Source: a virus (taxonomy: Duplodnaviria > Heunggongvirae > Uroviricota > Caudoviricetes). From it: a stretch of DNA of 45,127 nt. Every line of letters starts with the position of its first letter. Position 1 is the first letter of the stretch. The notes under the pieces are model-generated. The model was not told the origin of the DNA, made no database searches, and saw only the letters and a program-made list of their open reading frames with translations. The stretch covers positions 1 to 45,127 of IMG/VR virus record IMGVR_UViG_2778261231_000002; one strand, 5' to 3'. Positions 39,250 through 39,474 of the stretch are shown here, in pieces. The translations under genes and the position numbers were made by a program.

Positions 39250-39474
39250 CATCCGGCGCACAGGACAAAACTGATACGCACAAAGCCTTGCACTGGATTG
39301 CAAGGCTTTGTGCTCTTCTGTGAATGTGTGGCTATATGTTTGAAGATCGTTGTGCCGTATTTGTGACATATATATGGCAACATCATGCATCAACTTTCTG
39401 TTTGTGCCATCAACTATAGCTTAGTGAATGCGGTTAATGCTTGCTAAAACAGATAGTTATGATTGGTGCTACAG

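What the first reader, a model, noticed from the sequence alone, without database searches (positions are those of the whole stretch)
39282..39313. Perfect 13-bp inverted repeat downstream of the tail fibre assembly gene
ACAAAGCCTTGCA-CTGGAT-TGCAAGGCTTTGT has no flanking U-tract. It may end the late operon or be a binding site near the att region.
Basis: seen in the sequence. Interest (0 to 1): 0.2.

Follow-up and report, generated by a model that had tools for sequence, protein, structure and literature searches.

The report
Conserved hairpin beside prophage attachment site
The palindrome is real and is one copy of a roughly 55-base hairpin element that lambda, P22 and about two thirds of E. 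coli genomes carry, unannotated, at the outer edge of the integrase/attachment-site module, where it most likely folds in RNA to end or process transcripts leaving the integrase gene and the tail-fibre genes.

Summary
The repeat is real and longer than reported: 15+15 bp perfect, 39278-39292 / 39299-39313, with a 6-nt loop. It is the only perfect inverted repeat of this size in the window.

It is not private to this phage. Window 39264-39318 (GACAAAACTGATAC + hairpin + TCTTC) is a short conserved island with unrelated DNA on both sides. It occurs in lambda (27473-27508, 30 nt beyond tI/sib), P22 (inside the attP P arm), 434, phi80, HK97-like, Sf6-like, SfV/SfX and Stx phages. It is also in K-12 prophage CPS-53 (23 nt after the intS stop) and in 3593 of 5426 complete E. 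coli genomes. It is almost never annotated.

It travels with the att-int module, not with the tail fibre assembly gene.

Diverged variants (P22, SfV and a third type) keep the stem through G.U pairs and double changes only on the minus, int-sense strand. This points to an RNA hairpin downstream of int, across att, with the geometry of lambda tI/sib. The plus strand has a weak U-rich tail (UCUUCUGU), so a two-way terminator or insulator role is plausible. No transcript data exist.

Rivals are a late-operon terminator only, a CII or Xis/Int binding site, and a recombination joint.

The window holds two tandem prophages, so the 'attP' is a hybrid junction.

The parts
39264..39277 (.). Conserved left flank of the element, GACAAAACTGATAC (family consensus GAGACAAAACTGAGAC). 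On the - strand it reads GUAUCAGUUUUGUC, a U4 run 7 nt after the stem.
   Evidence: Homology with phages that have different upstream genes starts exactly here. The flank is present in about 40 of 43 independent left contexts, and the A4 run is its best-conserved part at 89-95%. It is homologous to the repeated GGGACAAAAATGGGAC of the P22 P arm.
39278..39292 (.). Left arm of the hairpin, GCACAAAGCCTTGCA
39293..39298 (.). Loop, CTGGAT. Together with the arm ends it spells TTGCactggaTTGC on the + strand (39289-39302).
   Evidence: Loop length is 6 in all main-type copies, with each position 80-95% conserved. The same motif is annotated as a 'CII binding site consensus' in the phage 434 record.
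39299..39313 (.). Right arm of the hairpin, TGCAAGGCTTTGTGC. TGCAAGGC is the most invariant stretch of the whole family.
39314..39321 (+). Pyrimidine/U-rich tail TCTTCTGT on the + strand. The first 5 nt (T-N-T-Y-Y) are part of the conserved element.
   Evidence: Terminator-like hit on the + strand. T is the first base after the stem in 17 of 19 right-flank contexts, with a mean of 3.8 T in 8 against a 29% background.
38644..39249 (+). Context: tail fibre assembly gene, the last rightward gene of prophage A. Its stop codon lies 29 nt before the stem.
   Evidence: Caudo_TAP; 99.5% identical to mEp213/mEp043
39314..39462 (.). Context: P arm of the att site, SfX/mEp213 type, with repeats GTTGTGCCGT (39349-39358), TTTGTGACAT (39360-39369) and TTTGTGCCAT (39401-39410).
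   Evidence: The same repeats occur in the P' arm of mEp213.
39463..39520 (+). Context: att core, a copy of the 3' part of tRNA-Thr (thrW). It is not a complete tRNA gene.
   Evidence: Annotated as an attachment site similar to thrW/ptwF in mEp213, HK542 and HK446. Weak Rfam tRNA match at 39449-39517. ARAGORN finds no tRNA here.
39535..40698 (-). Context: integrase of prophage B, 90% identical to P22 Int. Its stop codon is 222 nt upstream of the hairpin on the - strand. The P' arm repeats TGGGAC (39569-39574, 39580-39585) and TGGGTT (39589-39594) lie in its 3' end.

Best explanation
The palindrome is one copy of a conserved element of about 55 bp found in lambdoid and P22-like prophages. The element is a 14-15-bp stem with a 6-nt loop, a left flank carrying an A4 run, and a short pyrimidine-rich right tail. 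It sits at the outer edge of the integrase/att module, between that module and the late or cargo genes.

It most likely works as RNA. In transcripts that leave int on the minus strand and cross the att site, it folds into a very stable stem-loop. That stem-loop would define, protect or target the 3' end of those transcripts, which is the position and geometry of lambda tI/sib.

Because the window copy is a perfect palindrome with a U-rich + strand tail, it probably also stops or insulates rightward transcripts coming out of the tail-fibre genes. That would make it a two-way terminator between convergent units.

Shown: the existence, stability and wide conservation of the element; its linkage to att-int; and strand-specific maintenance of pairing in diverged variants.

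Inferred: that transcripts end or are processed there, and by which enzyme (RNA polymerase termination, RNase III or 3' exonuclease blockage).
For: (1) Real and non-random: 15-bp perfect stem, unique in the window, z about -5.

(2) Conserved island with unrelated flanks. At least 7 unrelated right flanks and about 40 left contexts were seen in IMG/VR loci. Blastn gave matches in 162 phage records, most of them to the ~55-bp piece alone. It is present in 3593 of 5426 complete E. coli genomes, in lambda 27473-27508, in P22 and in K-12 CPS-53.

(3) Linked to att-int, not to tfa: the homology boundary is at 39264.

(4) Position relative to int. The element is 23 nt after the stop of intS-type genes (33 loci). 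It lies across att, less than 300 nt from the stop of SfX- or P22-type int (47 loci). In the window it is 222 nt after the int stop and about 160 bp beyond the core, the same layout as lambda tI/sib next to P1.

(5) Stem columns are more conserved (mean about 96%) than loop (about 89%) or left flank (about 83%).

(6) Strand-specific covariation. The P22, SfV and 'third' variants align without gaps to the main type. They keep 91.9% of stem cells paired on the - strand against 75.9% on the + strand, with 59 against 16 G.U cells. The 'third' type folds at -24.4 kcal/mol (-) against -12.0 (+), and SfV at -18.9 against -12.9. RNAalifold on a balanced 16-sequence set gives 14 pairs at -15.7 kcal/mol with 4 compensated pairs on the - strand, against 8 pairs at -7.1 on the + strand. 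In the count of structure pairs on 66 distinct copies, 0 of 500 shuffles reached the observed covariation score, and all slid registers scored lower.

(7) Plus-strand side: the tail UCUUCUGU is called terminator-like. A rightward ORF ends within 150 nt of the element in 39 of 99 unique left contexts.
Against: There is no canonical U-tract directly after the stem on the - strand. The U4 run comes 7 nt later, and lambda's copy has none.

In lambda and 434 a separate tI/sib hairpin lies between att and the element. The element is therefore not the sib homologue there, and it may be redundant.

Within the common 'main' type, the variants are single-sided changes with no strand preference: 88.9% paired on the - strand against 89.3% on the + strand. 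The covariation signal rests on a few related diverged lineages.

In sbcB-type phages (mEp234, 1717) the element is followed by a relic of an intS 3' end, and the functional int points away from it. The element can therefore persist as a passenger.

No 3' end is recorded at intS/yfdG in the one K-12 Term-seq supplement I could search; I assume intS is barely expressed under those conditions, which I did not check.

Late transcription modified by Q reads through terminators (established lambda biology). A + strand terminator would therefore matter mainly in the lysogen.
Confidence: 0.45

Rival explanations
1. Late-operon terminator only. The hairpin acts solely on the + strand as a Rho-independent terminator or 3' stabiliser for tail-fibre or moron transcripts. 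It would keep them from running into att, antisense int and host DNA.
For: The element starts 29 nt after the tfa stop, and the + strand scan lists it with tail TCTTCTGT. The first base after the stem is T in 17 of 19 right contexts. The family consensus has a U.G pair (L10-R6) that pairs only on the + strand, and main-type copies are on average 2.3 kcal/mol more stable on the + strand. A rightward ORF ends within 60 nt of the element in 24 of 99 left contexts.
Against: The element is inherited with att-int and not with the upstream gene. In about 40% of contexts the left neighbour is a leftward gene such as gtrA or ea59, so nothing needs terminating on the + strand. In P22 and SfV the + strand minimum-free-energy fold does not even form the hairpin, while the - strand does. 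The U-tract is interrupted and weak.
Confidence: 0.2
2. DNA protein-binding site. The phased TTGC repeats (TTGCactggaTTGCaaggctTTGT) would bind CII/C1. Alternatively, the palindrome would be an accessory (Xis, Int or host factor) site of the P arm.
For: TTGC-N6-TTGC is present in 75 of 84 main-type copies, and three phased TTGY repeats in 71 of 84. The phage 434 record annotates it as CII binding sites. [quoted passage not shown] In P22 the hairpin lies inside the P arm between TGGGAC repeats. The arm ends (TTTGTGC) resemble the SfX-type arm repeat TTTGTGCC. Sequence conservation is high, with few compensated changes inside the main type.
Against: The TTGC phasing is lost in the SfV and 'third' variants, which nevertheless keep a G.U-compensated stem. 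No conserved -10 follows, because the right flanks are unrelated. The repeats point away from gtrA and the late genes. In lambda the element lies outside the att region as delimited by the Int-binding features of the lambda record, and beyond tI. In CPS-53 it lies 23 nt after the intS stop, on the far side of the 1.16-kb intS gene from attL. IntS arm sites share a TAAA motif instead.
Confidence: 0.15
3. Recombination joint or passenger. The palindrome has no function of its own. It persists because it is a short shared 'linker', or a fragile palindrome, at which att-int modules and cargo cassettes (for example gtrABC) are exchanged.
For: Mosaic boundaries fall at its two ends in many comparisons: 39264 on the left and about 39318 on the right, with lambda sharing only the hairpin. 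Deletion derivatives that lost one arm exist (L008, L011, L033). The element can travel with a relic of the intS 3' end. Its left flank looks like degenerate P22-type arm repeats.
Against: Stems are more conserved than the loop and flanks. Diverged lineages restored pairing by compensating changes on one strand. The element is intact in about two thirds of E. coli genomes.
Confidence: 0.1

Closest known systems
Lambda tI terminator / sib retroregulator (RNase III site distal to int)
   Same: Both are stem-loops on the int-sense strand. Both lie on the far side of att from int, abutting or inside the P arm, about 150-260 bp from the core. Both are separated from int by integration. Pairing is maintained on the int-sense strand.
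   Different: There is no sequence similarity to sib. Lambda carries both, with the element 30 nt beyond tI. No U6 run directly follows the stem. In intS-type prophages the element stays linked to int after integration. RNase III cleavage is untested.
Bidirectional intrinsic terminators between convergent genes
   Same: It is a single strong hairpin between the converging tfa (+) and int (-) genes. It has an A-rich stretch on one side and a U-rich stretch on the other that can pair as a lower stem.
   Different: The U-tracts are weak: interrupted on the + strand, and displaced by 7 nt on the - strand. The att core and P arm lie between the hairpin and int. The sequence itself is conserved across unrelated contexts, which ordinary terminators are not.
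CII/C1-dependent promoters (pRE, pI, paQ; TTGC-N6-TTGC)
   Same: There is an exact TTGC-N6-TTGC at 39289-39302 and a third phased TTGT. Other annotators have noted this in the phage 434 record and in the epsilon34 paper.
   Different: There is no conserved -10. The orientation points towards att and antisense int. The motif is absent from the SfV-type variants that keep the hairpin.
Arm-type and accessory sites of P22/SfX-type attP
   Same: In P22 and SfV the hairpin lies between TGGGAC repeats of the P arm. In the window it abuts a P arm with TTGTGCC repeats.
   Different: The same hairpin occurs with lambda-type, intS-type and sbcB-type integrases, where it lies outside att.

Membership tests
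Rho-independent (intrinsic) terminator | Stable G+C-containing stem-loop | tested here: met
   15 bp with 8 G-C pairs; -25.8 / -25.9 kcal/mol on the + / - strands
Rho-independent (intrinsic) terminator | Run of U immediately 3' of the stem | tested here: inconclusive
   + strand: UCUUCUGU, 5 U of 8, interrupted. - strand: GUAUCAGUUUUGU, with the U4 run displaced by 7 nt. Lambda's copy has no U run on the - strand.
Rho-independent (intrinsic) terminator | Transcript 3' ends mapped at the site | not testable with these tools
   The only searchable K-12 Term-seq supplement lists no 3' end at intS/yfdG. No data were found for lambda, P22 or this prophage.
Lambda sib/tI retroregulator | Hairpin on the int-sense strand, distal to int across attP | tested here: met
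   222 nt after the int stop and about 160 bp beyond the core. Pairing is kept on the - strand in diverged variants.
Lambda sib/tI retroregulator | Homology to the lambda sib/tI sequence | tested here: not met
   Lambda has tI/sib at about 27539-27579 and, separately, this element at 27473-27508. The 434 record annotates the terminator separately.
Lambda sib/tI retroregulator | RNase III cleavage that destabilises int mRNA made from the unintegrated phage | not testable with these tools
   Needs rnc+/rnc- comparison of int transcripts
CII/C1-activated promoter | TTGC-N6-TTGC straddling a -35 region | tested here: met
   39289-39302 on the + strand; present in 75 of 84 main-type copies
CII/C1-activated promoter | A -10 element at fixed distance and a sensible downstream transcript, conserved among copies | tested here: not met
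   The right flanks are unrelated beyond 5 nt. The promoter scan finds nothing here. The motif is lost in the SfV and third types.
Any Rfam RNA family | Match reaching a family's gathering score | tested here: not met
   Only chance-level microRNA hits were found: 19.4 bits against a gathering score of 100
Int arm-type binding site (heterobivalent tyrosine integrase) | Repeat of the arm consensus cognate to the adjacent integrase | tested here: inconclusive
   The stem ends (TTTGTGC) resemble SfX-type repeats TTTGTGCC. The left flank resembles P22-type GGGACAAAA. The element also occurs with integrases that have other arm motifs.

The most novel reading that the evidence does not exclude
The hairpin would represent a previously unrecognised, family-wide RNA element of temperate enterobacterial phages, an 'att-distal hairpin' present even in lambda and P22. 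It would control integrase expression post-transcriptionally, as a sib-like or 3'-end-protecting signal whose linkage to int depends on the integration state. It would also serve as the preferred joint at which att-int modules and cargo cassettes are swapped between phages.
Probability: 0.25. Interest if true: 0.6.

Novelty: new member of a known kind. Interest (0 to 1): 0.42.

Why it matters
Integrase levels decide whether a prophage integrates or excises, and lambda's sib/tI is the textbook case of control from beyond the gene.

Suppose this hairpin is the counterpart used by P22-, SfX/SfV- and intS-type modules, and a second, unnoticed hairpin in lambda itself. It would then extend that principle to most E. 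coli, Shigella and Salmonella prophages. It would also give annotators a simple landmark for the outer edge of att-int modules and for mosaic joints.

If it is only a two-way terminator, it is ordinary. It would still be worth annotating, because it is present in about two thirds of E. coli genomes and is currently unlabelled.

Tried and rejected
**Chance palindrome.** Rejected: it is unique in the window and conserved elsewhere.

**Known RNA family.** The Rfam E-value scan gave only noise.

**True homologue of lambda sib/tI.** Rejected, because lambda and 434 carry both elements side by side.

**tRNA gene at the att core.** ARAGORN finds none; it is a 3' fragment.

**IHF site in the hairpin.** By eye I found no WATCAANNNNTTR match on either strand. 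A good match lies instead at 39525-39537 in the P' arm.

**CRP, Fis, PurR/LacI-family, LexA, matS and SlmA motifs.** None fits; these checks rest on consensus sequences recalled from memory only.

**Small ORF across the hairpin** (as annotated in the 434 record). There is no conserved frame, because the flanks differ.

**Literature.** Searches for retroregulation in P22, for a terminator between int and gtrA, and for the sequence string itself found nothing relevant. The Mattis 2008 paper on P22 Xis and the Schindler and Echols 1981 paper are not held.

**K-12 Term-seq supplement.** It has no entry at intS/yfdG.

**Loop position 6** (the T that completes TTGC). It is not more conserved than other loop positions, so it gave no separate support for the CII idea.

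Full report
**1. The observation**

The sequence contains a perfect inverted repeat, but it is longer than reported and starts earlier. The arms are GCACAAAGCCTTGCA (39278-39292) and TGCAAGGCTTTGTGC (39299-39313), separated by CTGGAT.

It is the only perfect repeat of 15 bp or more with a short spacer in the 45-kb window. About 3e-4 would be expected by chance (my arithmetic).

As RNA, the hairpin alone is about -26 kcal/mol on either strand. The 91-nt context folds far better than shuffles, with z = -5.2 on the + strand and -4.5 on the - strand.

The hairpin begins 29 nt after the stop of the tail fibre assembly ORF (38644-39249; Caudo_TAP).

The statement 'no flanking U-tract' is only partly right:
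- The + strand tail is UCUUCUGU, and the consensus scan lists the site as terminator-like on the + strand.
- The - strand tail is GUAUCAGUUUUGU.

**2. Surroundings**

To the right lie the following features:
- A P arm with repeats of the type TTGTGCC (39349-39410).
- A 3' fragment of tRNA-Thr thrW, which is the att core (about 39463-39520). It is annotated as such in mEp213, HK542 and HK446. It is not a tRNA gene by ARAGORN.
- An integrase gene on the - strand (39535-40698).

That integrase is 90% identical to P22 Int but only 56% identical to the SfX/mEp213-type Int. The P arm repeats, however, are those found in the P' arm of mEp213. The window's own P' arm carries TGGGAC repeats like P22.

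The window also contains two CI-like repressor genes, at 6784-7488 and 43511-44185 (Peptidase_S24). Its first 9 kb and last 6 kb share no similarity.

The simplest reading is two prophages in tandem at thrW. Prophage A is a lambdoid early region followed by late and tail genes ending in tfa. Prophage B starts with int. The 'attP' is therefore a hybrid P(A)-O-P'(B) junction. The same junction occurs at 98-99% identity in several E. coli chromosomes.

**3. The hairpin is a copy of a widespread element**

Megablast showed that HK542, ECP1, HK446, mEpX2, HK75 and SfX share only window 39264-39538. Their homology starts 14 nt left of the stem, although their upstream genes differ.

A more sensitive search found that the roughly 55-bp piece 39264-39318 alone matches most of 162 phage records with other integration modules. 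These include HK106, phi80, 434, mEp234, HK633, Sf101, many Stx phages, and the Salmonella phages g341c, Emek and ST-35.

Pattern scans of IMG/VR gave about 190 copies (94 distinct sequences). They have at least seven unrelated right flanks and about forty left contexts.

The family consensus is GAGACAAAACTGAGAC-ACACAAAGCTTTGCA-CTGGAT-TGCAAGGCTTTGTGC-T(C/A)TTC.

The element is present in 3593 of 5426 complete E. coli genomes, and no listed match overlaps an annotated feature. Individual cases:

| Genome | Position of the element |
|---|---|
| K-12 prophage CPS-53/KplE1 | 23 nt after the intS stop, about 80 nt before yfdG (gtrA) |
| Lambda | 27473-27508, 30 nt beyond the tI/sib hairpin that abuts arm site P1; unannotated in the lambda records |
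| P22 | Inside the P arm, between TGGGAC repeats and to the right of the annotated gtr promoter |
| 434 | Marked only as 'CII binding site consensus', with the lambda-type terminator annotated separately nearer att |
| mEp234 / Stx phage 1717 | Followed by a relic of an intS 3' end, then an sbcB-type att and an outward-pointing int |

No paper in the library prints the sequence.

**4. Context statistics**

The right neighbour is one of the following:
- An integrase on the - strand: intS-type within 60 nt of its stop in 33 loci, or SfX- or P22-type across att within 300 nt in 47 loci.
- An integrase on the + strand, in about 25 loci.
- Nothing, where the prophage ends.

In 99 unique left contexts, the left neighbour is a rightward ORF ending within 150 nt in 39 and a leftward ORF in 40.

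The element therefore marks the border between the att-int module and the late or cargo region, in a fixed orientation.

**5. DNA site or RNA structure, and on which strand?**

*Main type.* Stem columns are more conserved (about 96%) than the loop (about 89%) or the left flank (about 83%). The variants are single-sided and show no strand preference: 88.9% of stem cells are paired on the - strand against 89.3% on the + strand. The consensus has one + strand-only U.G pair (L10-R6) and one - strand-only G.U pair at the stem end.

*Diverged types.* The P22-type, SfV-type and a 'third' type align to the main type without gaps and in the same register. Their differences are almost all transitions that keep pairing only on the - strand, or are double changes: C-G to U-A at one pair, and A.C repaired to G-C at another.

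| Measure | - strand | + strand |
|---|---|---|
| Stem cells paired, P22/SfV/third types | 91.9% | 75.9% |
| G.U cells, same types | 59 | 16 |
| 'Third' type fold, kcal/mol | -24.4 (18-bp stem, six G.U) | -12.0 |
| SfV fold, kcal/mol | -18.9 | -12.9 |
| RNAalifold, balanced 16-sequence set | 14 pairs, -15.7 kcal/mol, 4 compensated pairs | 8 pairs, -7.1 kcal/mol |

With flanks included, P22 and SfV form the hairpin only on the - strand. In the count of structure pairs on 66 distinct copies, 0 of 500 shuffles reached the observed covariation score, and every slid register scored lower.

The shuffle control does not correct for relatedness, and the diverged types are few and related. This is good evidence but not decisive.

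It favours a hairpin in RNA made in the int direction. Less likely, it could reflect a hairpin in that DNA strand.

**6. Mechanism**

The best-supported reading is an RNA stem-loop at the outer edge of the att-int module.

On the - strand it lies downstream of int, either directly (intS type) or across att (P22, SfV, SfX and this window). This is the place and geometry of lambda tI/sib. It could terminate transcripts, block 3' exonucleases, or be an RNase III target.

In the second layout, integration separates the hairpin from int, as it does for sib.

The weak point is the tail. U4 follows only after 7 nt. It can pair with an A-rich stretch upstream of the stem to give a lower stem, so canonical intrinsic termination on this strand is doubtful.

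On the + strand the window copy has a perfect stem and a U-rich tail, and lies 29 nt after tfa. A role in stopping rightward transcripts, and so a two-way terminator between convergent units, is plausible. This would matter most in the lysogen, because Q-modified late transcription ignores terminators (established lambda biology).

**7. Rivals**

*Plus-strand late terminator only.* This is contradicted by linkage to att-int, by contexts with leftward neighbours, and by P22 and SfV not folding on the + strand.

*Binding site.* Other annotators have pointed out the TTGC-N6-TTGC motifs in the 434 record and in PMC2629481. The P22 copy has three phased TTGC repeats, and direct repeats one helical turn apart are also typical of excisionase sites (PMC7498355 abstract). 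However:
- The motif is lost in the SfV and third types, which keep the stem.
- No -10 is conserved.
- The element lies outside att in lambda and CPS-53.
- IntS arm sites are unrelated.

*Passive recombination joint.* Breakpoints at both ends, one-arm deletion derivatives (L008, L011, L033) and the intS-relic case support this. It does not explain the extra conservation of the stem or the compensating changes. It may well be a secondary property.

**8. Comparison with known systems, and novelty**

The element works like tI/sib or like a bidirectional terminator. It is not a homologue of sib, since lambda has both, and it matches no Rfam family.

It appears to be an undescribed but very common element. 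The kind of element is known, while this family is not annotated.

The finding as written, a hairpin after tfa, is ordinary. What raises it somewhat is that it leads to an unlabelled conserved element present in lambda, P22 and most E. coli genomes.

All functional statements remain inferences until transcript ends, RNase III dependence and protein binding are tested.

Noticed in passing
window 1-39250 versus 39535-45127: The window appears to hold two tandem prophages. It has two CI-like (Peptidase_S24) repressor genes, at 6784-7488 and 43511-44185. The two ends share no similarity. A complete lambdoid early-to-tail layout sits before the att site, and int-xis-early genes sit after it.
   Followed up: partly
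window 39314-39600: The att site is a hybrid. The P arm carries SfX/mEp213-type repeats (TTGTGCC). The P' arm carries P22-type repeats (TGGGAC at 39569-39574 and 39580-39585; TGGGTT at 39589-39594), and the adjacent Int is 90% identical to P22 Int. The switch of homology lies in the shared thrW core (39475-39538). The same junction occurs in several E. coli chromosomes (H141-H152).
   Followed up: partly
window 39525-39537: AAATCAATAAGTTA fits the IHF consensus WATCAANNNNTTR. It lies in the P' arm and overlaps the int stop codon. I matched the consensus from memory and did not test it.
   Followed up: no
L314 974-1009 (lambda NC_001416 27473-27508): Phage lambda carries an intact copy of the hairpin 30 nt beyond tI/sib. 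It lies in a stretch of about 500 bp without annotated features between ea59 and att. Neither lambda record annotates it.
   Followed up: partly
L178 3001-3055 (E. coli K-12 DH1, CPS-53/KplE1): A copy lies between the intS stop and the start of yfdG (gtrA homologue). K-12 strains have a second copy that I did not locate.
   Followed up: partly
L008, L011, L033 (IMG/VR loci): Some thrW-type copies have lost one arm plus the loop, leaving ACACAAGGCTTTGTGC, or have the left arm replaced. This looks like slipped deletion between the two half-palindromic arms.
   Followed up: no
L316 3897-4419 (P22 NC_002371 22896-23418): The P22 record annotates an 'aI RNA' running against the leftward eaC-xis-int genes, within eaC upstream of xis, with a promoter 'may be activated by P22 C1 protein'. 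This is a separate layer of control that I did not look for in the window.
   Followed up: no
window 14372-14527: tRNA-Asn (GTT) and tRNA-Thr (TGT) genes lie in prophage A, just upstream of the presumed lysis genes.
   Followed up: no
window 44243-44279 and 4062-4109: Two other imperfect inverted repeats. TCATGTAATATGTAC/GTACATATTGTATGA lies just past the repressor gene of prophage B and looks operator-like. A repeat with 22-nt arms, 82% complementary, lies at 4062-4109.
   Followed up: no
L060 2545-2620 (mEp234) and L058 (Stx2 phage 1717): Phages integrating at sbcB carry a relic of about 70 nt or more of an intS-type integrase 3' end directly after the hairpin. This shows a past swap of the integration module.
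   Followed up: partly
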